Source: Patescibacteria group bacterium
GTDB taxonomy: Bacteria; Patescibacteriota; Microgenomatia; UM-FILTER-40-11
Length of the DNA: 64,000 nt
Assembly: GCA_035530075.1 (NCBI GenBank)
Contig: DATKVM010000002.1
Coordinates: forward strand, 24,818 to 88,817
Reading direction: 5' to 3'
Shown here: positions 2,130 to 50,329 of the stretch, piece after piece
Numbering within the stretch: position 1 is the stretch's first letter
Layout: each line of letters begins with the position of its first letter
Position numbers and translations under genes: made by a program
The notes under the pieces: model-generated
Databases searched by the model: none
What the model was told of the DNA's origin: nothing
The model's input: only the letters and a program-made list of their open reading frames with translations

Positions 2130-2600
2130 TTAAGGATTAGCCGTTTCATAATTGCAAGCACTACTACCACCACAATTATTGGTGCAACTGGTAGGTTTTG
2201 CGGCCGCCCCTTCCAAATAGGCGCAAAGGAAATAGCTGTTTTTGGAGACTAAGCGATACTGATAATTATAAGTTGGCACCAGCGGGTCAGCCGGAACCTG
2301 CTGCATATAGACCACGCCTACACAGGGAGATCCGGCGGGCCCAGTGAGGGAACTACCCGAGATGACCGCGCTAGGATAAGTTTTACAGTCGTTGCGGTAA
2401 AGCTCCAGAGCCGAACGAATTTGTTCCAAATCGGCTTTCCTTTTGCTGTCCCGAGCGCTTTTTCTCGCCTGGGCAAAGCCCAAGAAGGAAAGTGAGACCA
2501 AAATCCCAATAATAGAAATTACCACTAATAACTCAATCAAGGTAAAACCGCACTTATTTTGGTCTTTCTTATTATTTTTATAATTTGGCAATTCAGGCAT
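2130..2600 (-). CDS. type IV pilin with a Cys-rich C-terminus
   Basis: KCGFTLIELLVVISIIGIL. The C-terminus reads TSCTNNCGGSSACNYETANP. Confidence 0.8.
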   Translation of the reverse strand: MPELPNYKNNKKDQNKCGFTLIELLVVISIIGILVSLSFLGFAQARKSARDSKRKADLEQIRSALELYRNDCKTYPSAVISGSSLTGPAGSPCVGVVYMQQVPADPLVPTYNYQYRLVSKNSYFLCAYLEGAAAKPTSCTNNCGGSSACNYETANP

Positions 2601-2606
2601 TTTTAC

Positions 2607-3245
2607 TTAGGGGCAGGTATTAGGCATTAAACTACAGACACCAGTACTTAAACAGGCGCTCTGGGTCATCCATGGCGGTAAACACGAAGAAACTCCAGAC
2701 AAAAAGACCCCCTTACAGGCTCCACTTTCACAACAATAACAAGTTGTTCCACTAGGTGGCGATGATGGAGCCACTGTTGGTTCAGATGAACCAGAAGAAC
2801 TCCCCACCGTGCAAGTACTACTTCCCGGGGTAGCTCCCTCACCACTCAAACCGTTGGAACAAACGATAAAATCCGATTCACTTCTCTCCAAATTTGCTGC
2901 CAAAACATAATCTATTCCGTCAGAAGAAGAATAGTACAGATAATCAGAATAAACTCCTTCTTCTGCCAAAACATCATTAAGGCAAGCGCCGCTTAAATAG
3001 TCAACCATCAGGGTACAAAGGTTATCAATATCACCGCTAGCCACCGGGTACATGGAACTATGAGCGGAAGCATAATTTTCCAGGGCGGTCCGATATTGAT
3101 TTAAATCGGATTTTCGCTGAGCGTCCCGAGCTCCTTTCTCGGCAGTTAAATAGCGAGCAGTGCCAAAAGCGGCCAAAATCCCAATGATAGAAATGACCAC
3201 CAATAATTCGATCAAGGTGAAGCCGATTTTTGTTTTTTCTCTCAT
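2607..3245 (-). CDS. type IV pilin with a Cys/Ser-rich C-terminal region
   Basis: KIGFTLIELLVVISIIGILAA. The C-terminal 60 aa contain about 10 Cys (TTCYCCESGACKG...). Confidence 0.8.
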   Translation of the reverse strand: MREKTKIGFTLIELLVVISIIGILAAFGTARYLTAEKGARDAQRKSDLNQYRTALENYASAHSSMYPVASGDIDNLCTLMVDYLSGACLNDVLAEEGVYSDYLYYSSSDGIDYVLAANLERSESDFIVCSNGLSGEGATPGSSTCTVGSSSGSSEPTVAPSSPPSGTTCYCCESGACKGVFLSGVSSCLPPWMTQSACLSTGVCSLMPNTCP

Positions 3246-41966: not shown

Positions 41967-42124
41967 TTCCCTTTTTCTTTGTTGAAAACCTCAAAACGTT
42001 TTTTCTTTGTCCCTTATTTTACCTTCAAGTCGATTTATTGTCAATGAGTAGCGATTGTCTCCTTGTCAAATTGTTCCATTGCTAAAATAATCAACAATGA
42101 AGCCATGAAACAATGAATCAATTT

Positions 42125-43033
42125 TTAAGCGTTGAATTTAAATTCAATAATATCTCCTTCTTTTACGAAGTAATCTCTTCCTTCAAGTCTGACTTTCCCT
42201 GTCTCCGCCGCGCCTTTCCATCCCCCACTTTCCACCAATTCCTCAAACCCCACTACTTCTGCCTTAACAAACCCTTTGGCCATATCAGTATGGACCTCTC
42301 CGGCTGCATCAAGGCTGGTTTTCCCTTTTTGCAGGCTCCAGGCGCGGACCTCCTTTCCTCCTTTAATCGTATAAAAAGTTATTAAGCCCAGGAGCTGATA
42401 TGCTTTTTTGATTAATTTGTCCAAACCGCTTTCTTCGATTCCCATTTCTTTAAGATACTGTTTTCTCTCTTCTGAAGAAAAATCTGCCAAGTCTGCCTCC
42501 AGTTTGGCGCAAACAGGCACTAGTTCAACTTCTTCCTCTCCCACCTTAATCCTAGACGGCCATTTTTGGTCTTTTAGTTGATCTTCAGAAACATTAAGAA
42601 CATAAATCGTCGGCTTTTTGATTCCCCCCAACTGAAGCTCAATATTCACTATCTCAATATCCCTTCTGGGATCAATTGTCTCATAATAATGGCTGACATC
42701 AGGATTGGTAAACATCCGGACAATATGAACAATGGCCGCTACCTCTCTTATCTTTCCCAAAAATTGATTTCCCAGTCCTTCTCCTTTATGAGCGCCTTTA
42801 ATTAAACCAGCAATATCAATAAATTCCACTGAAGCAGGAGTGGTTGTTTGGGGTTTTATTAGTTGAGAGAGTCTTTCTAATCTTTCATCAGGAACCGGAA
42901 CAATGCCCACATTTGGCTCAATGGTGGTAAAAGGAAAGCTCTCGACCTTGGCCATTTGCCGAGAAAGCAAGGCATTAAACAAGGTGGATTTCCCGGCATT
43001 AGGAAGACCGACTATCCCCAAAGAAAGACTCAT
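42125..43033 (-). CDS. ychF: ribosome-binding ATPase YchF (Obg-family GTPase/ATPase), short form
   Basis: GIVGLPNAGKSTLFNAL, a DIAGLIKGA switch, NxxD variant and a C-terminal TGS domain GDIIEFKFN. Confidence 0.88.
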   Translation of the reverse strand: MSLSLGIVGLPNAGKSTLFNALLSRQMAKVESFPFTTIEPNVGIVPVPDERLERLSQLIKPQTTTPASVEFIDIAGLIKGAHKGEGLGNQFLGKIREVAAIVHIVRMFTNPDVSHYYETIDPRRDIEIVNIELQLGGIKKPTIYVLNVSEDQLKDQKWPSRIKVGEEEVELVPVCAKLEADLADFSSEERKQYLKEMGIEESGLDKLIKKAYQLLGLITFYTIKGGKEVRAWSLQKGKTSLDAAGEVHTDMAKGFVKAEVVGFEELVESGGWKGAAETGKVRLEGRDYFVKEGDIIEFKFNA

Positions 43034-43958
43034 AATTTCCTCTCAACAATTTAGCAATTAATAGCGAAATTAGACTTAAAGCTTAAATCTAATTTCGTCT
43101 AACAAAATATACTTCACATTGATCACTCAATGAAAATCTCTCTGGTTCTGAAAAACTATTTCCCATCGATTTTAAAACGGCATCCGTCCCCTGATCAGTA
43201 TAAGTAAAATTGTCAAAAAGAACTCCGCCCCTAAACACTAACAATCTAAAATATTCTTCTAGCACTCTTGGCTCATAACGCGTTGCCCCAAAAAAATCAT
43301 AAATTAAAGAAAAACTTCCGCTTGCAAAGGGAGCCTCCCGGGCATCAAACCGGAGGTATGGAATGTTACCCCCCGACTGTAATTTTGCAATATCTCCACA
43401 AACCAACTGATAAGGATCGCCAAGAGCACTTCTAAGTCTTTTTTCAACACTCGCATTGTTTGAAGCTGGGGACAAAATGCGTATTTTATCATTACCTGAC
43501 AGAGGCAAAGAAAGTCCTTGGATAACCTTGGATAATGCTACAATTTCCTCTTCATTTAGACTGGACGACCAATTTTCCAAACTTCCCCCACGAGAATAAG
43601 TATTTACAAGATATTCTGCTAAATCATCCATAAACTAAAGTATAGCAAAATTTATATATCTTTTAAAAAAACAAAATCTTTTCTATTATAAATTTCTCCT
43701 TGCCTTTATAAAAAATGCCAATCAATTGCTTTCGATTCAATTTTGACATAAATAAAATAGTGAAATGATGTGTGGGTATATTTTGTTATTAGACAAAAAT
43801 AGTTGTTGCCTCCGGAACCTTAGCTTTAACAATTCTGCCCAAGTAATCTCTCTGAAGAATTTCCCTTGCTTTATTTTTCTTTGGAAGCACTAGTTTGAAG
43901 TAAAAATCAAAAGTAGGGGCAGTGAAAAGTGAATCCCGATAGAAAGTGACATATGAAA
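43015..43958. repeat. direct repeat copy A (about 0.95 kb): ychF 5' end, paralog A gene and about 330 bp upstream
   Basis: Three blocks are near-identical to copy B: 43015-43046, 43089-43150 (about 60/60) and 43876-43958 (about 90%). The coding middle has diverged. Confidence 0.8.
43089..43631 (-). CDS. small class-I methyltransferase-fold protein (degenerate motif I), paralog A
   Basis: FDAREAPFASGSFSLIYDFFGA...LEEYFRLLVFRGGVLFD matches methyltransferase motifs post-I, II and III. The Gly-rich motif I is not conserved (IRILSPASNNAS). About 50% identical to 46217..46810. Confidence 0.6.
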   Translation of the reverse strand: MDDLAEYLVNTYSRGGSLENWSSSLNEEEIVALSKVIQGLSLPLSGNDKIRILSPASNNASVEKRLRSALGDPYQLVCGDIAKLQSGGNIPYLRFDAREAPFASGSFSLIYDFFGATRYEPRVLEEYFRLLVFRGGVLFDNFTYTDQGTDAVLKSMGNSFSEPERFSLSDQCEVYFVRRN

Positions 43959-44021
43959 CCATTTTACTTCCTATTTAGCTTAAATTACAGCTCTTCTCTG
44001 AGATAAGAGGGAGGTTGTTAG

Positions 44022-46076
44022 CTATCCCAAATTCAAATCTCTGGTTTGCAGAATCCAAATCTGTCCTTCCTTATCTATAGCCCACTCTATATCCTGTGGG
44101 GTTTCACCAAACTCAGATCTTAAGCGTTCCGACAGCATAAACAAAGCTTTTGCCTCTGAAGGAGAAAGAATCTTTGGTCCTTTTTGTTCAATTACACGCC
44201 TCTCAGAGCGAGAAAATTTATATCGCTCAACATCCTTCGCTTCTCCCGAAACTATTCCTTCACCTAAGCCTTCATTCGCCTCTATCTCAACTATATCCAG
44301 GTTTTTGGTCTGCACATTCACACCAAAAATCACGCCCGCACACCTGGCTGGAACCATTTCTTGAACAACAACTGCCATTTTGAGTTTCGCAACAAGACTT
44401 GAGTTTTCTTTCAGATACCTCTCGATCTTTAGCGAGAATGCTGAACGGACAACTTCAAGCATTTTCAGAGAAAGAGCTTCTCCAGAAACATTCAAAAAAG
44501 TATCAAACATCCCTGCCATAGAATTCTTACTATCATCTTCTATGGTTACCGAGGAACGAACAGCAAACACCTTACCCGATTTTATGTAATCGGCTAAAAC
44601 TTTATTCACAAGGTCAATCACATCTCTATCAGGATCCTTAAGTTGTTCATAAATCTTCGGAAAATCTTCAATAGAAACAGGGCTAGAAAAACCCAGTTTC
44701 TTAATAATTTCATCAAACGACAAAGTTGTAAGAACCGCTCCATGTGGAACCTGAAAACCCAAAATTTTAAGCTTAGAAAGCCTATCTGCCTTCCCGCCAC
44801 AGAGCTCCACCCCAAGCAAAGATGCATCCCAAAGTGAAACGTATTGTTGAGATTGTGTTCGGGACAAATTGGTCACTCTAACTTTTCCATTAGTAACCAC
44901 AATCTGTGCTTCATCTCCATTCTCAAATTTTTGATTTCCAACAAGAAAAGCCTTATGACCTTTATCAGTTAACACTCTCATCGCATGCTGTGTAGCAGCA
45001 ACCCCAGGATAAAGCACATAGAGTTTATCCTTCCAAACCGCAAGAGCTCCCAAGATGTCATAATTACGATTACTGATTATTTGTTCGCTTATTTTTACAA
45101 TAACTTTCCCAGAAAGCAGATCTTCTGACGGAACCTGTGCGAGTTTGTGAAAATCCTCCACATTCTTGATTACTCTTACAATACCCTTTATCCGCAAATT
45201 CTTGTCGCTCTCTTCTTTTGCCTCTTTCCAGTAATCTGCCACTTCGTTGAAACAAATACCATTCTCGTCTGTTGAAAATTCAACTCTCTGAGAACCATAT
45301 TTTTGAGAAAGTTCATGGACGACTCTGGCTACTTCCGTAATCTCCGAATCAGAAAGCACCTGATCAAACTGCATGTCTACAGGAACTTGAAATAGCTTTG
45401 CCCCAGACTCTTTTGTGGTGCAAAGCATCAAATTCTTTTGCGGTATCTCCTTGCGAATAATGAAGCCTCGATTTTGTTTAAACTCTATCTCATATCTATC
45501 TGCCACCAAAGATTGCACGCCTTCATTAATTCCAAAAACTGCATAAATAGTTACCCTTCCATTTTCTGATATTCCATAACCACCGTAGGGAATCAAAGCA
45601 GAATGGGGATCCTTGTTAAATTTTTCAATGTCCAAAACTGTAGATGGAGGCTCTATCCACCCGCTTATCTGATTTCCATTTACTTCATGATATTTTTGTT
45701 CTATTGCAAACTGGAAAAGGTCTTTTATGGCAGTTGTAACTTTTTCTGGAGTTGTTAAACCAAGAAAGCGGGGCCCTGGAGGATTTTCAAGGCCAGGCAC
45801 TACAAAGGCCCTACGAACTAATGCTGCATGTGAAGCACTTTCTTCAATTACTTTCTTCGCAGCAGCCTCAGCCTCACTAATAAATTCTTGAGGTAATTCT
45901 CTGTGTTTTAAAAAATACTTAAATATGTCTAAGGGAAAAACATATATATTAACTATCCGAGCACGAACTTCCTCTAATTTCTTCCAGCCATCTATCCTTG
46001 GATTTGGAAGTAAATATTCTGATGGTGAGATTAAATTTTTCATAGTAAAAAATAGGTTTGGGTATGATTTCCCCAA
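44022..46076 (-). CDS. PEP-utilising phosphotransferase with permuted domains: partial ATP-grasp half, phosphohistidine swivel domain, then a complete PPDK_N ATP-grasp
   Basis: The C-terminal 260 aa match the PpsA N-terminal ATP-grasp (FAVRSSVTIEDDSKNSMAGMFDTFLNV; PQDIEWAIDKEGQIWILQTRD). The middle PGVAATQHAMRVLTDKGHKAFLVG matches the swivel domain [21 protein letters not shown]. The N-terminal third resembles a second ATP-grasp half. Confidence 0.75.
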   Translation of the reverse strand: MGKSYPNLFFTMKNLISPSEYLLPNPRIDGWKKLEEVRARIVNIYVFPLDIFKYFLKHRELPQEFISEAEAAAKKVIEESASHAALVRRAFVVPGLENPPGPRFLGLTTPEKVTTAIKDLFQFAIEQKYHEVNGNQISGWIEPPSTVLDIEKFNKDPHSALIPYGGYGISENGRVTIYAVFGINEGVQSLVADRYEIEFKQNRGFIIRKEIPQKNLMLCTTKESGAKLFQVPVDMQFDQVLSDSEITEVARVVHELSQKYGSQRVEFSTDENGICFNEVADYWKEAKEESDKNLRIKGIVRVIKNVEDFHKLAQVPSEDLLSGKVIVKISEQIISNRNYDILGALAVWKDKLYVLYPGVAATQHAMRVLTDKGHKAFLVGNQKFENGDEAQIVVTNGKVRVTNLSRTQSQQYVSLWDASLLGVELCGGKADRLSKLKILGFQVPHGAVLTTLSFDEIIKKLGFSSPVSIEDFPKIYEQLKDPDRDVIDLVNKVLADYIKSGKVFAVRSSVTIEDDSKNSMAGMFDTFLNVSGEALSLKMLEVVRSAFSLKIERYLKENSSLVAKLKMAVVVQEMVPARCAGVIFGVNVQTKNLDIVEIEANEGLGEGIVSGEAKDVERYKFSRSERRVIEQKGPKILSPSEAKALFMLSERLRSEFGETPQDIEWAIDKEGQIWILQTRDLNLG

Positions 46077-46216
46077 CTCTATGCCTCAATTTTAATCCAC
46101 GGCCTGTTAATTAGCAATTACTGGAGGCTCAGAATGAACAATCCTCCCCATCTTATCCCTCTCCATGATAATTCTCGATTTTCTTGGGCTTGGGAGGATG
46201 AAGTCAAACTTGAAGT

Positions 46217-46810
46217 CTAAGAATGAGGTTGCGTAAGTTCTATCCCCAAAGAAAGACTCATAATTTCCTCTTTACGTCTAACAAAATATACTTCACATTG
46301 ATCACTCAATGAAAATCTCTCTGGTTCTGAAAAACAATCCTCCATTGATTTCAAAACCTCATCAGTCCTCGGAGAGGTATAAGTGAAATAGTCAAGAATA
46401 ACTCCGCCACCAGGCACTAACAATCTGAAATATTCTTTTAATGCTTCTGGATCGTAATATGCTGCTCCCAAAAAATCGCAAATTAAAGAGAAACTCTTAT
46501 CAGCGAAGGGGACCTTCCTGGCATCTAAATGAATAAACGTCTCTTTATCTACAGGTTTTACTAAGGAAATATCCCCACAAACTAGTTGGTAAGGAGCTCC
46601 TAAGCACTCTGCAAGTCTTCTTTCAAACCCTGCTTTGTTTGCAGAGGGTGATAAGATTCGTATCTTGTTTTCGCCCGATAGAGGCAAAGAAAGCCTTTTA
46701 ATAAACTCAGATAATGCTTGGGTCTCTTCCTCATTTCTTAAACTTTCCCAATTTTCAAGAACTCCACCAGGAGAATATTGCCATATAATGTTTTCTGTTG
46801 CCTTGTCCAT
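46217..46810 (-). CDS. small class-I methyltransferase-fold protein, paralog B, with a captured ychF N-terminus at its C-terminus
   Basis: FADKSFSLICDFLGA...LKEYFRLLVPGGGVILD. The C-terminal IMSLSLGI repeats the YchF start MSLSLGI. Confidence 0.6.
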   Translation of the reverse strand: MDKATENIIWQYSPGGVLENWESLRNEEETQALSEFIKRLSLPLSGENKIRILSPSANKAGFERRLAECLGAPYQLVCGDISLVKPVDKETFIHLDARKVPFADKSFSLICDFLGAAYYDPEALKEYFRLLVPGGGVILDYFTYTSPRTDEVLKSMEDCFSEPERFSLSDQCEVYFVRRKEEIMSLSLGIELTQPHS

Positions 46811-46932
46811 TAATATATTATAGCAAAGTATTTAAAAACTCTTCACTCTTTTTCTTCGGAAGCACTAATTTGAAGTAAAAATCAAAAGTAGGGGCAGTGA
46901 AAAGTGTATCCCAATAGACAGTGACATATGGC
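46237..46932. repeat. direct repeat copy B (about 0.7 kb), lacking the 45-bp palindrome found in copy A
   Basis: See copy A. Here the ychF fragment (atgagtctttctttggggata, reverse strand) is fused to the paralog B reading frame. Confidence 0.8.
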
Positions 46933-46976
46933 AATTATACTTGAATTAAGGCTGAAACGGTAGTTTTCCCAAGTGC

Positions 46977-47459
46977 TTAAGGGGCATCGCTTGAAGTGCA
47001 ATGACGAATAAATTCTTCCTTTGTACTTAAAGTTGTCTTCACTAAACAATCCTTACCATCGCTAGTTGCTTGATAGAAAAAATCTGCTTTAGTGTCCGGA
47101 TCCACGGGAATCTCCTTTAAATAACCTTTTTGCTGAACTTCAATTATACTTGTTGGACACTGTCCGATATCTAAACAAAAACGTCTCGCCTGAGTAGATA
47201 TTTCTTGTACTCCCGCCCTCCTAATTGCATCCCTAGCACTTGATAACTGATTTTTAGGCGAAGTAAAAACTAACATCAAAGAAACTAAGATTCCCAAAAG
47301 GGGTACTCCCAGTCCTATCCCCGTAACCCACCACTTCGCTCTTTTACTCCAGGGGGCAATAAACCACATAACGATAAGCCCAATAAGGAAGGTCGGAACA
47401 AACAAAAGAAGAATAATAGTTACCCAACTACGCCAATCCTGGTACCACTTTTTTCCCAT
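46977..47459 (-). CDS. pseudopilin-like membrane protein (GspG/pilin-type C-terminal domain) with an atypical double-TM N-terminus
   Basis: The C-terminus GYLKEIPVDPDTKADFFYQATSDGKDCLVKTTLST resembles the PxDPWG...Y.Y..DG pseudopilin fold. Two N-terminal TM helices. Confidence 0.4.
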   Translation of the reverse strand: MGKKWYQDWRSWVTIILLLFVPTFLIGLIVMWFIAPWSKRAKWWVTGIGLGVPLLGILVSLMLVFTSPKNQLSSARDAIRRAGVQEISTQARRFCLDIGQCPTSIIEVQQKGYLKEIPVDPDTKADFFYQATSDGKDCLVKTTLSTKEEFIRHCTSSDAP

Positions 47460-47471
47460 AATTCTATTGAA

Positions 47472-47801
47472 TCACCACCAAGGGATAATTGCAAATATGT
47501 CAGGAAATAGTTCTACTAGGGTCATCCAAACGGCAACAAAAATAACCACCCAACCCGCAAGTTTATAAACTTTTAGTTTTTGCTGAAGAAAAAGCCAGGC
47601 CATGCTTAGTAGAAAAAAATTAAAAATTATCAAAAAGGGAAATTTTGACTTTATATTCCATCGTTCGATTAAATATATCACCAAAAGCAAGAGAAAAATT
47701 GTAGACCGACCTAGCAACCTTACAACAATCAAAACTGGATTTTTCGTTTTAGGCCATCTGAATTTCTGGTCTGAATTGTCTCTATTTTCCATATATCTCA
47801 A
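47472..47801 (-). CDS. small membrane protein, 109 aa
   Basis: Three hydrophobic helices. Confidence 0.45.
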   Translation of the reverse strand: MRYMENRDNSDQKFRWPKTKNPVLIVVRLLGRSTIFLLLLVIYLIERWNIKSKFPFLIIFNFFLLSMAWLFLQQKLKVYKLAGWVVIFVAVWMTLVELFPDIFAIIPWW

Positions 47802-47820
47802 CTTCCCATAATACCACTAA

Positions 47821-47850
47821 TAGCTTACTTGAGGCTAAAAGACGAGGCTC
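47821..47850. promoter_or_regulatory. 30-nt conserved motif copy 1 (TAGCTTACTTGAGGCTAAAAGACGAGGCTC), a candidate operator
   Basis: 28 of 30 positions match 48791..48820. On the minus strand it lies just upstream of a TGgTATTAT -10-like box for gene 47472..47801. Confidence 0.45.
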
Positions 47851-47852
47851 GG

Positions 47853-48032
47853 TTACTTTCGTTTATATCCCCAAGGCATTCTGCCAAAACCGTGACCCTT
47901 TTGGTCAATTCGATGGATATTGAAAGATTGGCACTTTGGACATTTCATTTCCACGACTCTTTTACCTGTCCCAAATGGCGCTTCCCAAATATGGCCGCAA
48001 TCCTCACATTTAATTTTTTTAACTCCATTCAT
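47853..48032 (-). CDS. zinc-ribbon mini-protein (59 aa, CxxC-18-CxxC), not in the ORF track
   Basis: MNGVKKIKCEDCGHIWEAPFGTGKRVVEMKCPKCQSFNIHRIDQKGHGFGRMPWGYKRK. A strong GGAGGTGA Shine-Dalgarno sits 7 nt upstream of the ATG. Confidence 0.6.
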   Translation of the reverse strand: MNGVKKIKCEDCGHIWEAPFGTGKRVVEMKCPKCQSFNIHRIDQKGHGFGRMPWGYKRK

Positions 48033-48038
48033 TAACCC

Positions 48039-48320
48039 TCACCTCCCTTTTTCAATCCTAATCGCCTTACCCAAGATAATTGCCCGGGCAATTTTTTTAT
48101 GAGCACTTTCCAAAAGCCGGGCAAAGGTCGGTTGGGAAATTTTCATTTTAGCGGCCGCCTCTTTTTGTTCCAAGCCATCAACTTCATGGAGTTTTAAGGC
48201 TTCAAGCTCATCGGGCAATAAAATCTCCTCTTCAAGTAATCGGAGAGGAACGCCTCGAGGCTTAAAGTAATAAACATTAGGCTTAAAGCGCAAACAGCGT
48301 GGTCTTCTTGGCCTGGGCAT
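48039..48320 (-). CDS. DUF134-type HTH DNA-binding protein (sigma-70 region-4-like helix)
   Basis: RFKPNVYYFKPRGVPL...LEALKLHEVDGLEQKEAAAKMKISQPTFARLLESAHKKIARAI, an HTH of family UPF0251/DUF134. Confidence 0.7.
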   Translation of the reverse strand: MPRPRRPRCLRFKPNVYYFKPRGVPLRLLEEEILLPDELEALKLHEVDGLEQKEAAAKMKISQPTFARLLESAHKKIARAIILGKAIRIEKGR

Positions 48321-48330
48321 ATTTATTAAT

Positions 48331-48573
48331 TTATTTTAATTCTTCTTCTTCCTTCTTAACATCTTCCAGCTCTTCCTCTAAAGCTTTTCGGTATTCGGAA
48401 AGAGCCTGCTTTTGGTCTTCCGTTGTTTGCGGCCAATTCCAGCCGAAATAACGGCCCAATCCTCTTCCGGCACCAAATCTTCTTCTCCAGCCTAAGCCCA
48501 AACCACAAGGCCCAAATCCTCTCCCGGTTCCTGGCCCTTGACCGAGAGGACCAGTTCCATCAAATCCTGACAT
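48331..48573 (-). CDS. Gly-rich small protein with a C-terminal acidic coiled coil, DUF5320-like
   Basis: GFDGTGPLGQGPGTGRGFGPCGLGLGWRRRFGAGRGLGRYFGW followed by EEELEDVKKEEEELK. This class is often paired with DUF134. Confidence 0.55.
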   Translation of the reverse strand: MSGFDGTGPLGQGPGTGRGFGPCGLGLGWRRRFGAGRGLGRYFGWNWPQTTEDQKQALSEYRKALEEELEDVKKEEEELK

Positions 48574-48790
48574 ATTAACCCACCTCCTTTGCTCTCAGTG
48601 TTATGAATATATATTCATTATATCAGGCAACAAAGCTTTGTCAAGCAGTCAATTAAAACTCAAATTATGGCATTATGGAGTGGGCTATCCCCCCCTTTTT
48701 CATCTCTCTTGGTTAATCTTCTGAAGTTAAAAAATATCGATTCCGACTTAAACTATCCCAATTGAAAAGCTTGACATAGTAGGCCAATCA

Positions 48791-48820
48791 TAGCTTACTT
48801 GAAGCTAAAAGACGAGGTTC
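48791..48820. promoter_or_regulatory. 30-nt conserved motif copy 2 (TAGCTTACTTGAAGCTAAAAGACGAGGTTC)
   Basis: It sits about 13 nt upstream of GATATAAT (48831-48838) and the ATG at 48847. That places it over the -35 region of a probably leaderless methyltransferase mRNA. Confidence 0.45.
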
Positions 48821-48846
48821 TCAAGCAAATAAGATATAATTATTTC

Positions 48847-49425
48847 ATGTACACGCTCGATGAATTAAGGAAGGATATTTGCTTTGAAAAAACCTTAAGA
48901 GGCCAAGAGTTTAAATTTTGCAGCACTTGGGGGCTTTTCAGTCCTGAAAGAGTTGACGAGGGAACCGAACTTTTGATAAATCACCTCGATATAAAACCAA
49001 ATGACATATCTCTAGATTTAGGTTGTGGGTATGGGGCTATTGGCTTAACCGTAGCTAAGCTTTCACCTCAAGGAAAGGTTCATTTGGTAGATAAAGATTA
49101 TGTGGCAGTTGAGTATTCAAAGAAAAATGCCCAAGCTAACAAGATTGAAAATTGTGAAATTTACTTAAGTGACGCCTTTGAGAAAGTTCCAGATATTCAA
49201 TTCGATAACATTATTTCTAATTTGCCCGCCAAAGTCAGCAAAGAGCTTTTCTGGATTATCTTCCTAGGGTCAAAAAAGTATTTAAAGCCAGACGGAAAGT
49301 TTTATGTGGTAACTATTTCCGGGCTAAAGGAATTCATTAAAAGAAACTTTAATGAAATTTTTGGCAACTACGAAAAATTAGGGCAAAGTAAAACTTATAC
49401 TGCCGCCGTGGCTATCAACGAGTAA
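48847..49425 (+). CDS. class-I SAM-dependent methyltransferase (small-domain RsmC/RlmG-like). The ATG at 48847 is preferred over the track TTG at 48799.
   Basis: Motif I LDLGCGYGAIGL. Also has an acidic residue in VHLVDKD and an NLPA site in place of NPPF/Y. Confidence 0.7.
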   Translation: MYTLDELRKDICFEKTLRGQEFKFCSTWGLFSPERVDEGTELLINHLDIKPNDISLDLGCGYGAIGLTVAKLSPQGKVHLVDKDYVAVEYSKKNAQANKIENCEIYLSDAFEKVPDIQFDNIISNLPAKVSKELFWIIFLGSKKYLKPDGKFYVVTISGLKEFIKRNFNEIFGNYEKLGQSKTYTAAVAINE

Positions 49426-49747
49426 TCGATTATAGCTTAATAAGAGGCTCACTTTTTTGGAAGAAATCAAGCCCTGGTTTATCCAGAAATTCTAAAATCA
49501 TTTACCTGATTGAGTGAATAAATCCTTCAGCTTCGCTCCACTTCGCTAAGGCAACGACGGCCGTGATTGAGAAACAAAAATCAAGCAATAAGGCTTTAGA
49601 TATTGCAAATTGGATGCTGGGTCCCTTAATTAAAAGTCTAGAACAAAACTAAAACTTTTTGCACCGGAGGCTTATGTTAGGAGCGCAACCAAAAGAAAAA
49701 GCCTCCCTTTCCTTGGGTCAAATAATCCTCGACAATAATCTGAACAA

Positions 49748-50329
49748 CTAATCATTTTTTTTTCGCTTTTTACTCCACTCTTTTATCCTTTCCTGAGGAG
49801 GGATTTTTCTTTTTTTCTGTTCTGTCCTAAATTTGGTTGATTCCATAATCTCTTCTTTCAAAACTTCTAGCGAAGGCAAACCCAAGGCAAATCTTTCTTC
49901 ATCAGTCGTATCAAGACTAACCGGATATTGAATATAACGTTGTTGTTCTTCGTTCCACCTGGATTGAGTTCCATATTTTTGCGGTTCACCAATATGCTTT
50001 AAATAACGGTCCAAGGTGTTGGCGACCATTCTTCCCGATCCAACCACGCCACTCTCAAAAGCTTTTTTGGCGTATTCATGCGCCTGCCAGTAATCTTCAG
50101 GGGTTTCTCCGTGCTGCAAAATTAATGAAAGCTGGTAATAGATCTCCCCATCAGCTTCTTTCAACAAGCCATTAGAAATTAAACCTTGAACTTTCTTTCT
50201 TCTCTCCCAGTCGTGTTGTCGCATTAACTCTTTTGCCTCTTGGTCATTCCAGTCAATATTTATTCTCTCATTCTTATCTTCGTCAAAAAGTCTCTTTAGT
50301 TTTCCTTTTAAAGTAATTCCTGTATCCAT
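49748..50329 (-). CDS. hypothetical protein, paralog of 50355..50924
   Basis: It shares the pattern ...LI.QH....PE...A...A.......G...A...DRY....G..Q.YGTQ with the divergently transcribed neighbour. Confidence 0.5.
   Translation of the reverse strand: MDTGITLKGKLKRLFDEDKNERINIDWNDQEAKELMRQHDWERRKKVQGLISNGLLKEADGEIYYQLSLILQHGETPEDYWQAHEYAKKAFESGVVGSGRMVANTLDRYLKHIGEPQKYGTQSRWNEEQQRYIQYPVSLDTTDEERFALGLPSLEVLKEEIMESTKFRTEQKKRKIPPQERIKEWSKKRKKND

What the first reader, a model, noticed from the sequence alone, without database searches (positions are those of the whole stretch)
43015..46932. Pyruvate,water-dikinase-like phosphotransferase with permuted domain order, sandwiched between paralogous methyltransferase-fold genes
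Seen in sequence: ORF 44022..46076 (684 aa) ends with a complete PPDK_N-type ATP-grasp domain. Its middle carries a phosphohistidine swivel domain, and its N-terminal third resembles a second, partial ATP-grasp half.

Established knowledge: PEP synthase is ordered ATP-grasp, swivel, TIM barrel. Rifampin phosphotransferase is ordered ATP-grasp, substrate domain, swivel. A swivel domain followed by an ATP-grasp domain, with no TIM barrel, is in neither known layout.

The two flanking genes (43089..43631 and 46217..46810) are paralogs. Both keep methyltransferase motifs post-I to III but have lost the Gly-rich SAM loop, so they may act as non-catalytic partners or adaptors.

Inference: this three-gene cassette could phosphorylate, and possibly methylate, a small molecule or antibiotic-like substrate. 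It may be a permuted kinase class that is not yet characterised. Inactivation of the substrate is only one possibility.
Basis: partly seen in the sequence, partly recalled or inferred. Interest (0 to 1): 0.72.

Follow-up and report, generated by a model that had tools for sequence, protein, structure and literature searches.

The report
Dikinase-like enzyme with two ATP-grasp domains
A gene in a tiny-genome (Patescibacteria) bacterium encodes an uncharacterised relative of PEP synthase and rifampin phosphotransferase, in which a phosphate-carrying histidine domain sits between a remodelled ATP-grasp domain and a normal one; the two methyltransferase-like genes beside it are a local duplication, not conserved partners.

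Summary
ORF 44022..46076(-), with its true start probably at Met12 (46043), is one gene. More than 100 full-length relatives share its layout.

It has three domains:
- Residues 291-412 are a divergent swivelling phosphohistidine domain with invariant T362-x-H364.
- Residues 413-684 are a canonical ATP-grasp that keeps every tested ATP-site residue.

The family also exists as two adjacent genes (N+swivel, then ATP-grasp) and once in the order C-N-swivel. This shows the modules work together.

The most likely mechanism is as follows. ATP is used at the C-domain, His364 carries the phosphate, and an unknown acceptor binds the remodelled N-domain.

The order acceptor domain, His domain, ATP-grasp is not new. 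Glucan, water dikinase and the split HpeHI/PpsAB kinases already have it. What is new is that the acceptor-side domain is a second ATP-grasp.

The three-gene cassette idea fails:
- The methyltransferase-like genes have no homologues outside this organism.
- They are absent from about 24 other loci of the family.
- They belong to a 3.2-kb duplication bounded by an exact 32-nt repeat of the ychF start.

Verdict: a new variant of a known kind, of moderate interest.

The parts
44022..46043 (-). CDS of the three-domain dikinase-like protein. It is 673 aa from Met12. The mechanical ORF runs on to a TTG at 46076, giving 684 aa. Residue numbers used here follow the 684-aa ORF.
   Evidence: Homologues of 640-727 aa are full length and start at the position of Met12.
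45207..46043 (-). N-domain, residues 12-290. It is a PPDK_N-type ATP-grasp fold with a remodelled nucleotide/phosphate site: invariant N98-P-P-G-P102, R27, R89, R264, E266 and E278. It is the proposed acceptor-binding domain.
44841..45206 (-). Swivelling phosphohistidine-type domain, residues 291-412, with the invariant motif Y-P-G-x-x-x-T362-x-H364-A-M-R.
   Evidence: There is no direct PF00391 hit.
44985..44987 (-). Codon of His364, the predicted phosphate-carrying histidine.
   Evidence: Invariant in 41 of 41 sequences. It aligns with the GGxTSH histidine of relatives that carry PF00391.
44022..44840 (-). C-domain, residues 413-684 plus the stop codon. It is a canonical PPDK_N ATP-grasp with K429, R507, T526, E664, Q677 and R679.
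   Evidence: PF01326 E 3e-50. phmmer to Rph-Lm E 2e-19, with ATP-site motifs aligned. Residue roles come from PMC4844700.
46217..46810 (-). Upstream methyltransferase-like ORF (MT-B, 197 aa). Its last 17 residues come from the duplicated ychF start and the junction sequence.
43089..43631 (-). Downstream methyltransferase-like ORF (MT-A, 180 aa), a paralogue of MT-B.
   Evidence: Ka/Ks 0.30.
46240..46271 (.). Upstream copy of an exact 32-nt direct repeat. The repeat is the Shine-Dalgarno region plus the first 22 nt of ychF.
43012..43043 (.). Downstream copy of the 32-nt repeat, at the real start of ychF.
46849..46930 (.). Upstream copy of an 82-nt direct repeat (94% identical), lying upstream of MT-B.
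43874..43955 (.). Downstream copy of the 82-nt repeat, just after the kinase stop codon. It overlaps the start of a 57-aa ORF.
43789..43962 (-). 57-aa ORF between the kinase gene and MT-A. It is called as a gene in the public contig. Its function is unknown.
   Evidence: No PADLOC hit.
42125..43033 (-). ychF-type GTPase gene. Its 5' end is the sequence duplicated at the left edge of the 3.2-kb unit.
   Evidence: MMR_HSR1, YchF-GTPase_C.

Best explanation
The gene encodes a self-contained, ATP-dependent phosphotransferase of the PEP synthase / PPDK / rifampin phosphotransferase / glucan-water-dikinase superfamily. It probably works by the swivelling-histidine mechanism.

Proposed steps:
1. The C-terminal ATP-grasp (residues 413-684) binds MgATP and phosphorylates, or first pyrophosphorylates, His364 on the middle domain (residues 291-412).
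2. That domain then swings to the N-terminal domain (residues 12-290). This is a duplicated ATP-grasp that has lost its phosphate-lid loop and now serves as the acceptor site.
3. There the phosphate is passed to a still unknown, probably anionic or nucleotide-like, small molecule.

What is shown: the three folds, their order, the conservation of the ATP-site residues and of the histidine, and the fact that N+swivel and ATP-grasp also occur as two adjacent genes.

What is inferred: the direction of transfer, the role of the N-domain as acceptor site, and the nature of the acceptor.

The flanking methyltransferase-like genes are not part of the machine. With the kinase gene they form a low-GC, 3.2-kb segmental insertion or duplication at the 5' end of ychF.
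For: C-domain.
- It hits PF01326 at E 3e-50.
- It keeps the equivalents of Rph-Lm Lys22, Arg117, Thr136 and Glu297. These are K429, R507, T526 (T or S) and E664, plus Q677 and R679. All are invariant or nearly so in 41 sequences.

Middle domain.
- T362 and H364 are invariant.
- The domain aligns with PF00391-positive relatives.
- Its fold is collinear with the PPDK ATP-grasp plus central domain.

N-domain.
- An HMM of the N-domain cross-hits canonical PPDK_N domains.
- The Gly-rich lid is replaced by an invariant NPPGP. The Asp and Arg of the Mg/phosphate site are changed to R264 and A280, while E266 and E278 stay invariant.

Module coupling.
- 101 relatives are fused N-SW-C and one is C-N-SW.
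- In 5 of 5 metagenome loci, a ~373-aa N+SW gene is followed within 0-3 nt, or overlapped, by a ~280-aa PPDK_N gene.

Precedent for each step comes from Rph (PMC4844700), HpeHI (PMC12167813), GWD (PMC13553574) and VadK (PMC13400623).

No conserved neighbour was found in 19 contexts, which fits a stand-alone enzyme.
Against: - No biochemical data exist for any member.
- The swivel domain is not recognised directly by Pfam or by a profile search of PDB sequences. Profile-profile scores are weak: hhalign E 0.002 with 12-14% probability.
- I could not inspect model coordinates, so I do not know whether His364 can dock into either cleft.
- The N-domain could be a scaffold rather than an acceptor site.
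- The hint of nucleotide-metabolism neighbours is not statistically convincing.
Confidence: 0.6

Rival explanations
1. Regulatory autokinase, like VadK. The C-domain phosphorylates His364, and the phosphate is passed to another protein or simply signals ATP status. The N-domain would be a structural or regulatory pseudo-enzyme domain. In some lineages the output would be transcriptional, through a fused ribbon-helix-helix domain.
For: - VadK shows that a PPDK-derived ATP-grasp plus His-domain protein without a TIM barrel can act as a histidine kinase (PMC13400623).
- The archaeal, Dojkabacteria and Shapirobacteria branch carries an N-terminal RHH/CopG-like extension.
- No small-molecule pathway genes are conserved nearby.
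Against: - The N-domain is as strongly conserved as the catalytic domains. Invariant charged residues line the former nucleotide site. That is more than a scaffold would need.
- No conserved partner protein is encoded nearby.
- Metabolic enzymes also carry RHH fusions (PutA, from my own knowledge).
Confidence: 0.15
2. The kinase and the two methyltransferase-like proteins act together, with the latter as non-catalytic adaptors or as methylases, to modify an antibiotic-like small molecule.
For: - The three genes are co-directional and adjacent.
- Both methyltransferase-like copies have evolved under purifying selection (Ka/Ks 0.2-0.4).
- The MT-B to kinase junction is seen in several independent assemblies.
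- Rph-type enzymes do inactivate antibiotics (PMC4844700).
Against: - The methyltransferase-like proteins have no homologues beyond each other in 5.8 billion proteins.
- They are absent from all other loci of the family, including the 83%-identical homologue.
- Their flanking arrangement follows from a duplication of the whole unit 'intergenic region, MT gene, ychF start'.
Confidence: 0.07
3. A non-orthologous PEP synthase or PPDK. The N-domain binds pyruvate/PEP in place of the TIM barrel, as the automatic label 'pyruvate, water dikinase' implies.
For: - Sources label some members pyruvate, water dikinase.
- NCBIfam PEP-synthase models are the top partial hits.
- T at position -2 from the histidine is the PEPS/PPDK state rather than the Rph/HpeH state.
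Against: - The hits cover only the ATP-grasp and lie far below the family cut-offs (145 bits against 883).
- There is no PEP-utilizers_C TIM barrel.
- The family is rare and patchy: 17 loci among 185,579 species genomes. That is unlike a central-metabolism enzyme.
- The gene has a low GC content and sits in an inserted segment.
Confidence: 0.05

Closest known systems
Glucan, water dikinase (GWD1/PWD; EC 2.7.9.4/5)
   Same: The linear order is the same: acceptor-side domain, then His domain, then a C-terminal PPDK_N-type ATP-binding domain, with no TIM barrel. A swivelling or pivoting His mechanism is proposed for it (PMC13553574).
   Different: - GWD has CBM45 modules and an all-helical central domain as its acceptor side. 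Here the acceptor side is a second ATP-grasp, and no CBM is present.
- GWD is a ~1400-aa plant and algal enzyme. This protein is ~670 aa and occurs in Patescibacteria and some archaea.
Two-component small-molecule dikinases HpeHI, PpsAB (phenylphosphate synthase) and CreHI
   Same: A carrier subunit (substrate domain plus swivel) is encoded upstream of a separate ATP-grasp subunit. The present family also exists in this split form and as the corresponding fusion. HpeI is among the top structural matches for both ATP-grasp domains.
   Different: - The HpeH/PpsA substrate domain is homologous to the helical rifampin-binding domain of Rph (PMC12167813). Here it is a degenerate ATP-grasp.
- The residue at -2 from the histidine is Met in HpeH and Rph, and Thr here.
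Rifampin phosphotransferase (Rph) and PigC/RedH-type enzymes
   Same: It has the best sequence and structure match for the ATP-grasp (E 2e-19; Foldseek E 3e-18). It is a three-module dikinase that yields AMP and Pi through a His intermediate (PMC4844700).
   Different: - The order in Rph is ATP-grasp, substrate domain, swivel. Only one relative, P0094, has that order.
- The substrate domains are unrelated.
- NCBIfam Rph scores 118.8 bits against a cut-off of 999.
PEP synthase / pyruvate, phosphate dikinase
   Same: Residues 12-412 are collinear with the PPDK N-terminal ATP-grasp plus central His domain. The T-x-H motif is shared.
   Different: The third domain is a second ATP-grasp instead of the PEP/pyruvate TIM barrel. 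The first ATP-grasp has lost its ATP-lid loop.
VadK (Rv1127c), a truncated PPDK
   Same: It is an ATP-grasp plus His domain without a TIM barrel, and autophosphorylation on the histidine has been shown (PMC13400623). It resembles the N+SW half and the ~375-aa stand-alone relatives.
   Different: The ATP-grasp of VadK is its working ATP site. Here the adjacent ATP-grasp is degenerate, and a separate canonical one is appended or encoded next door.

Membership tests
Swivelling-histidine dikinase superfamily (PEPS/PPDK/Rph/GWD) | PPDK_N-type ATP-grasp nucleotide-binding domain with intact phosphate- and Mg-binding residues | tested here: met
   PF01326 E 3e-50. K429, R507, T526, E664, Q677 and R679 are conserved. 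Residue roles are taken from PMC4844700.
Swivelling-histidine dikinase superfamily (PEPS/PPDK/Rph/GWD) | Mobile phosphohistidine domain (PF00391 fold) with a conserved catalytic His | tested here: met
   PF00391 does not hit directly. Collinear relatives hit it above the cut-off. H364 aligns with their catalytic His and is invariant. The fold is collinear with the PPDK central domain.
Swivelling-histidine dikinase superfamily (PEPS/PPDK/Rph/GWD) | ATP-dependent autophosphorylation on His, with AMP + Pi (or PPi) as products | not testable with these tools
   This needs enzyme assays.
PEP synthase / PPDK proper | C-terminal PEP/pyruvate-binding TIM barrel (PEP-utilizers_C) | tested here: not met
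   There is no such Pfam hit, and the protein ends in an ATP-grasp. NCBIfam PEPS models score 145 bits against cut-offs of 598-972.
Rph / HpeH / PpsA-type small-molecule dikinases | Helical rifampin-binding-like substrate domain | tested here: not met
Glucan, water dikinase | Domain order acceptor side, His domain, C-terminal ATP-binding domain | tested here: met
   Searches compared with PMC13553574.
Glucan, water dikinase | Carbohydrate-binding modules (CBM45/CBM20) and a helical central domain | tested here: not met
   There are no CBM hits. The secondary structure of residues 12-290 is alpha/beta ATP-grasp.
Class I SAM-dependent methyltransferases (flanking ORFs) | Rossmann-like core, motifs post-I, II and III | tested here: inconclusive
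   MT-B hits Methyltransf_11 at 23.0 bits against a cut-off of 21.2, on the C-terminal half of the model only. MT-A scores 13 bits, E 0.17. The best PDB sequence match has E 0.011.
Class I SAM-dependent methyltransferases (flanking ORFs) | Motif I, the glycine-rich SAM loop (E/D-x-G-x-G-x-G) | tested here: not met
   The sequence at that position reads KIRILSP(A/S)(S/A)N(N/K)A in both copies. The Pfam matches start only at model position 44-49.

The most novel reading that the evidence does not exclude
This would be a previously unrecognised class of swivelling-histidine dikinase. A duplicated ATP-grasp has been converted from an ATP site into the acceptor site, so that phosphate is relayed from ATP in one ATP-grasp to a nucleotide-like or other phospho-anionic metabolite held in the other. 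An example would be a (d)NMP or NDP used in nucleotide salvage. The enzyme would be used by ultra-small Patescibacteria and some archaea.
Probability: 0.2. Interest if true: 0.75.

Novelty: new variant of a known kind. Interest (0 to 1): 0.5.

Why it matters
- **A fourth acceptor module.** The dikinase superfamily is known with three kinds of acceptor module: the TIM barrel (PEPS/PPDK), the helical rifampin-binding-type domain (Rph, HpeH, PpsA), and CBMs plus a helical central domain (GWD). A fourth kind, a recycled ATP-grasp, would show that the swivelling-histidine relay can be rebuilt by duplicating its own ATP domain. It would also point to a new substrate class.
- **Unknown biochemistry in reduced genomes.** The family is confined to poorly understood, metabolically reduced lineages. 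Each retained 670-aa enzyme there is likely to matter, so it is a reasonable target for finding unknown biochemistry.
- **Annotation.** The labels 'pyruvate, water dikinase' and 'PEP synthase' carried by these proteins in public records are almost certainly wrong.
- **A caution on adjacency.** The flanking-gene result shows that apparent cassettes in a single genome can be by-products of local duplication.

Tried and rejected
- **Direct Pfam and PDB sequence searches of the middle domain.** Each of 23 family members was scanned against Pfam. PF00391 was not among the matches, and the few weak ones (down to E 0.0014) were to unrelated small domains. A profile search of PDB sequences gave only a chance hit at E 3.1.
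- **hhalign.** N-domain against C-domain gave local E 0.0019 and 14% probability. Swivel against canonical swivel domains gave E 0.0023 and 12%. The alignments are topologically sensible but too weak to stand alone, so I relied on intermediate sequences and folds instead.
- **PADLOC.** No hit for any of the four ORFs, so there is no sign of a known defence system.
- **Rfam over 42900-47100.** Only sub-threshold eukaryotic snoRNA noise.
- **A split gene in L040.** It looked like a natural two-gene form, but it is a frameshift inside the last hairpin of the swivel domain. It was rejected as evidence. True two-gene forms were then found in L042-L046.
- **P0070 contig.** It ends 68 nt after the gene, so its partner could not be seen.
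- **Metagenome scans.** The scan with P0159 found nothing. Alignment A6 was too divergent to search with.
- **afdb50 fold library.** It was unavailable.
- **Phenylphosphate-synthase-type fusion.** I considered this and rejected it, because the PpsA/HpeH substrate domain is Rph-like and helical, not an ATP-grasp.
- **MarK as a precedent.** It belongs to an unrelated fold family, UPF0261.
- **Chimeric assembly at the 32-nt repeat.** I considered this as an explanation of the flanks. It is unlikely, because the MT-B to kinase junction recurs in several independent assemblies.
- **Neighbour enrichment for nucleotide metabolism.** Suggestive, but not above what a reduced genome would give by chance.
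Full report
**1. What is at the coordinates**

The region 43015-46932 holds three co-directional ORFs on the minus strand:
- 46217..46810, 197 aa, called MT-B here.
- 44022..46076, 684 aa.
- 43089..43631, 180 aa, called MT-A here.

The ychF-type GTPase gene (42125..43033) follows. A 57-aa ORF (43789..43962) lies in the 390-nt gap after the large gene.

The surroundings are housekeeping genes: RF2-like, HtrA, CtpA, S18, SSB, S6, YchF, KsgA. Public records name the organism as a Patescibacteria MAG.

Forty homologues of the large ORF begin at the residue matching Met12 (MKYL...). The real CDS is therefore probably 44022..46043. Residue numbers below follow the 684-aa ORF.

**2. The large protein is one gene with a conserved architecture**

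A search of 5.8 billion proteins returned 74 relatives. Most are 640-727 aa and cover 96-99% of the query at 34-83% identity. They come from Woesebacteria, Parcubacteria, Dojkabacteria, other Patescibacteria and Bathyarchaeia.

A profile of residues 12-412, run against 1.84 billion cluster representatives, gave 517 hits. I classified the 218 collected proteins with HMMs of the three segments:
- 101 have the order N-SW-C.
- 17 are N-SW only.
- 1 (P0094) is C-N-SW.

A frameshift artefact is therefore excluded.

**3. C-terminal domain, residues 413-684**

Pfam PPDK_N matches at E 3e-50. NCBIfam models for PEP synthase, PigC and Rph match the same stretch only, far below their cut-offs.

phmmer against PDB sequences aligns it with the Listeria Rph ATP-grasp at E 2e-19. 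The motifs FAVRSS..ED...AG..DT.LN and PQDIEW...LQ.R line up.

In Rph-Lm, the residues Lys22, Arg117 and Thr136 position the polyphosphate, and Glu297 binds Mg (PMC4844700). Their equivalents here are:
- K429, in 41 of 41 sequences.
- R507, in 41 of 41.
- T526, as T or S in 41 of 41.
- E664, in 40 of 41.
- Q677, in 40 of 41, and R679, in 41 of 41, are also conserved.

This is a working-looking ATP site.

**4. Middle domain, residues 291-412**

Direct tests fail:
- PF00391 does not hit the protein.
- It does not hit any of 23 family members scanned singly.
- A profile search of PDB sequences finds nothing.
- hhalign against a small alignment of canonical swivel domains gives a full-length, topologically correct alignment, but only E 0.0023.

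The case rests on intermediates and on fold:
- The profile search recovered ~375-aa proteins that align end to end with residues 12-412 (for example P0145 at E 5e-16 and P0159 at E 3e-11).
- Pfam finds PPDK_N followed by PEP-utilizers in them: P0159 28.6 bits and P0201 29.0 bits, against a cut-off of 23.1.
- In the joint alignment, H364 falls under their G-x-x-T-S-H-A-A-T-I-L-R-E histidine. P0091 (E 1e-65 to the profile) has FPGGITSH at that place.
- T362, H364, R367, D371 and H374 are invariant.
- The AlphaFold2 model is confident (pLDDT 86.3 for the whole protein and 87.8 for residues 12-412). It shows the strand-helix order expected of the domain.
- Foldseek aligns the 12-412 model with PPDK structures over ~580 columns at TM 0.51. 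That covers the ATP-grasp and the central domain together.

I regard the swivel assignment as established at the level of homology and fold. It is untested at the level of chemistry.

**5. N-terminal domain, residues 12-290**

It is a complete ATP-grasp.
- Foldseek agrees (E 2.5e-12).
- The N-domains of relatives hit PF01326 above threshold (P0070 34.8 bits, P0145 64.2 bits).
- The N-domain profile cross-hits the second half of canonical PPDK_N domains in ordinary 750-900-aa PEPS/Rph-like proteins.

The nucleotide site has been rebuilt. This reading comes from alignments A1 and A4 and from the hhalign register:
- Where the canonical domain has the flexible lid ED...S(F/M)AG..DT, the N-domain has V-P-G-L-E-N-P-P-G-P-R, with N98 conserved in 40 of 41 sequences and P99, P100, G101 and P102 in all 41.
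- The QDIEW aspartate is R264 here.
- The LQxR arginine is A280 here.
- The two metal-ligand positions remain acidic and invariant (E266, E278).
- R27 and R89 occupy the places of the Lys22 and Arg117 equivalents.

A domain this conserved, yet this altered, is unlikely to be either an ATP site or a mere spacer. I infer that it is the acceptor site.

**6. The modules work together**

Five metagenome loci, diverged from each other (47-85% identity to the query P0085), carry a ~373-aa N+SW gene. It is followed, with overlap or a gap of 0-3 nt, by a 278-288-aa gene:
- L042: 3-1190, then 1187-...
- L043: 939-2060, then 2060-2911
- L044: 1-1053, then 1053-1919
- L045: 2-1114, then 1107-1967
- L046: 531-1655, then 1658-2494

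The second gene is PPDK_N (E 4e-64 to 2e-48). It is 29-31% identical to our C-domain.

Fusion in one lineage, adjacent genes in another and a permuted fusion in a third (P0094) form the classical signature of parts of a single machine joined by flexible linkers. This parallels HpeH/HpeI and PpsA/PpsB compared with the fused Rph (PMC12167813).

L044 and L045 also carry a fused paralogue next to the split pair.

**7. Mechanism proposed**

By analogy with Rph, HpeHI, GWD and PPDK:
1. ATP binds the C-domain.
2. His364 attacks the beta-phosphate. The gamma-phosphate is lost to water, or to phosphate.
3. The His-P domain swings to the N-domain pocket and phosphorylates the acceptor there.

Shown here: the folds, the order, the conserved residues and the coupling of the modules. 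Inferred: the direction of transfer, the dikinase stoichiometry, the acceptor site and the acceptor itself.

On the acceptor:
- The many invariant Arg/Lys residues plus two acidic metal ligands suggest an anionic, possibly nucleotide-like ligand.
- Some neighbours belong to nucleotide metabolism: NUDIX directly upstream in L007 and nearby in L029 and L031; a NadD-like nucleotidyltransferase 4 nt downstream in L001 and nearby in L022; NT5C and an amino-acid-kinase-family gene upstream in L020; a dCTP-deaminase-like gene 11 nt downstream in L046.
- Such genes are common in reduced genomes, and my rough count gives no clear enrichment. I treat this only as a lead.

**8. The flanking genes and the 'cassette'**

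- MT-A and MT-B are 61% identical over 180 residues without gaps.
- They match only the second half of class I methyltransferase models and lack GxGxG.

What argues against a functional link:
- They have no relative other than each other in 5.8 billion proteins.
- tblastn finds them only in contigs of this same organism. None is found in any of the loci fetched for other members of the family, including the 83%-identical one.
- In 19 contexts with 126 neighbouring ORFs, the only recurring neighbour is a NUDIX protein, seen three times.

The DNA explains the symmetry:
- The whole unit 'intergenic region, MT gene, Shine-Dalgarno plus first 22 nt of ychF' is present twice.
- An 82-nt block is 94% identical at its 5' end. 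A 32-nt block is 100% identical at its 3' end.
- The interior is much more diverged (Ks 1.4-1.9 in the first two thirds, 0.37 in the last third; Ka/Ks 0.2-0.4).
- The upstream copy reads through the duplicated ychF start, which gives it the tail ...EEIMSLSLGIELTQPHS.

Further points on the locus:
- The kinase and MT genes have lower GC (0.38-0.40; GC3 0.28-0.32) than HtrA, CtpA or KsgA (0.46-0.47; GC3 0.43-0.48).
- The MT-B to kinase junction recurs in several assemblies, so it is not an assembly chimera.
- The simplest reading is that a 3.2-kb segment (kinase, intergenic region, MT-A, ychF start) from a related genome entered at the 5' end of ychF. It would have been anchored by homology on one side and joined illegitimately on the other. 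This is inference.
- Whatever the history, the flanking arrangement is a by-product of it, not evidence of function.

**9. Comparison with what is known**

The statement that a swivel followed by an ATP-grasp without a TIM barrel is 'in neither known layout' overlooks two cases:
- Glucan, water dikinase has the order CBM45 x2, helical central domain, His domain, C-terminal ATP-binding domain (PMC13553574).
- The two-component kinases have a gene order that corresponds to it.

The protein works like these enzymes and belongs to their superfamily. It fails the defining feature of each named family:
- no TIM barrel, so it is not PEPS or PPDK;
- no helical Rph-type substrate domain, so it is not Rph, HpeH or PpsA;
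- no CBMs or helical central domain, so it is not GWD;
- its swivel-adjacent ATP-grasp is not a working ATP site, so it is not VadK.

The distinguishing feature is that the acceptor-side module is itself a recycled ATP-grasp. I found no paper describing this. That is absence of evidence in an incomplete library.

**10. Verdict**

The family is an uncharacterised dikinase-like family, but not an unknown layout, and not a three-gene cassette.
- Novelty: a new variant of a known kind.
- The family is rare. It occurs at 17 loci among 185,579 species genomes, all of them MAGs.
- Interest is moderate. It would rise if the acceptor proves to be a new substrate class.

Noticed in passing
window 43012-43043 and 46240-46271: An exact 32-nt direct repeat, made of the Shine-Dalgarno region and the first 22 nt of ychF, bounds a 3228-bp unit. 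The upstream copy is fused in frame to the end of MT-B. This looks like the scar of a homology-anchored insertion or duplication at the 5' end of ychF.
   Followed up: partly
window 43874-43955 and 46849-46930: An 82-nt repeat (94% identical) lies 47-67 nt after the stop codon of the preceding gene in both copies. It opens with ATG TCA CTx TCT ATx GGG ATx, which reads 'MSLSIGI'. That is curiously close to the ychF start 'MSLSLGI' and may be an older relic of the same junction.
   Followed up: no
window 43789-43962 (-): A 57-aa ORF sits between the kinase gene and MT-A and is called as a gene in the public contig. Its first third lies in the 82-nt repeat. The remainder lies in about 200 nt that the upstream copy lacks.
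   Followed up: no
window 42000-50000: A block of lower GC (0.38-0.40, against 0.44-0.47 on either side) covers the kinase gene, both MT-like genes, two small membrane-protein ORFs (46977..47459 and 47472..47801) and an MTS-type methyltransferase gene (48799..49425).
   Followed up: partly
L042-L046 (JGI metagenome contigs): This is the two-gene form of the family: an N+swivel gene directly followed by a ~280-aa PPDK_N gene. In L044 (1999-3993) and L045 (2779-4098) a fused three-domain paralogue lies next to the split pair. In L046 the next gene (2505-3017) is dCTP-deaminase-like.
   Followed up: yes
P0094 (654 aa, representative library): The only member found with the order canonical ATP-grasp (19-288), degenerate ATP-grasp (294-543), swivel (554-645). 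This is the Rph-like order.
   Followed up: partly
P0055-P0065, P0069; L007 6001-8184: The branch annotated as Bathyarchaeia, Shapirobacteria and Dojkabacteria carries an N-terminal ribbon-helix-helix (CopG-like) extension of about 50 aa (RHH_1 E 8e-4 in P0056). This suggests DNA binding or autoregulation.
   Followed up: no
L040 568-2597: An apparent split of the gene in a Logan contig is a frameshift inside the last hairpin of the swivel domain. It is either a sequencing error or a pseudogene. A HicA toxin gene lies just upstream.
   Followed up: yes
L024, L025, L028-L030, L032 (genome contigs titles): Several contigs that carry close homologues, next to typical Patescibacteria housekeeping genes, are titled 'uncultured Gammaproteobacteria' or 'Woesearchaeota' in the TPA bins. 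The taxonomic labels of these records look unreliable.
   Followed up: no
L020 1-1951 (-): A canonical long PPDK_N + PEP-utilizers (Rph/PEPS-like) gene lies three genes upstream of the stand-alone N+swivel gene P0070, with NT5C and amino-acid-kinase-family genes between them.
   Followed up: no
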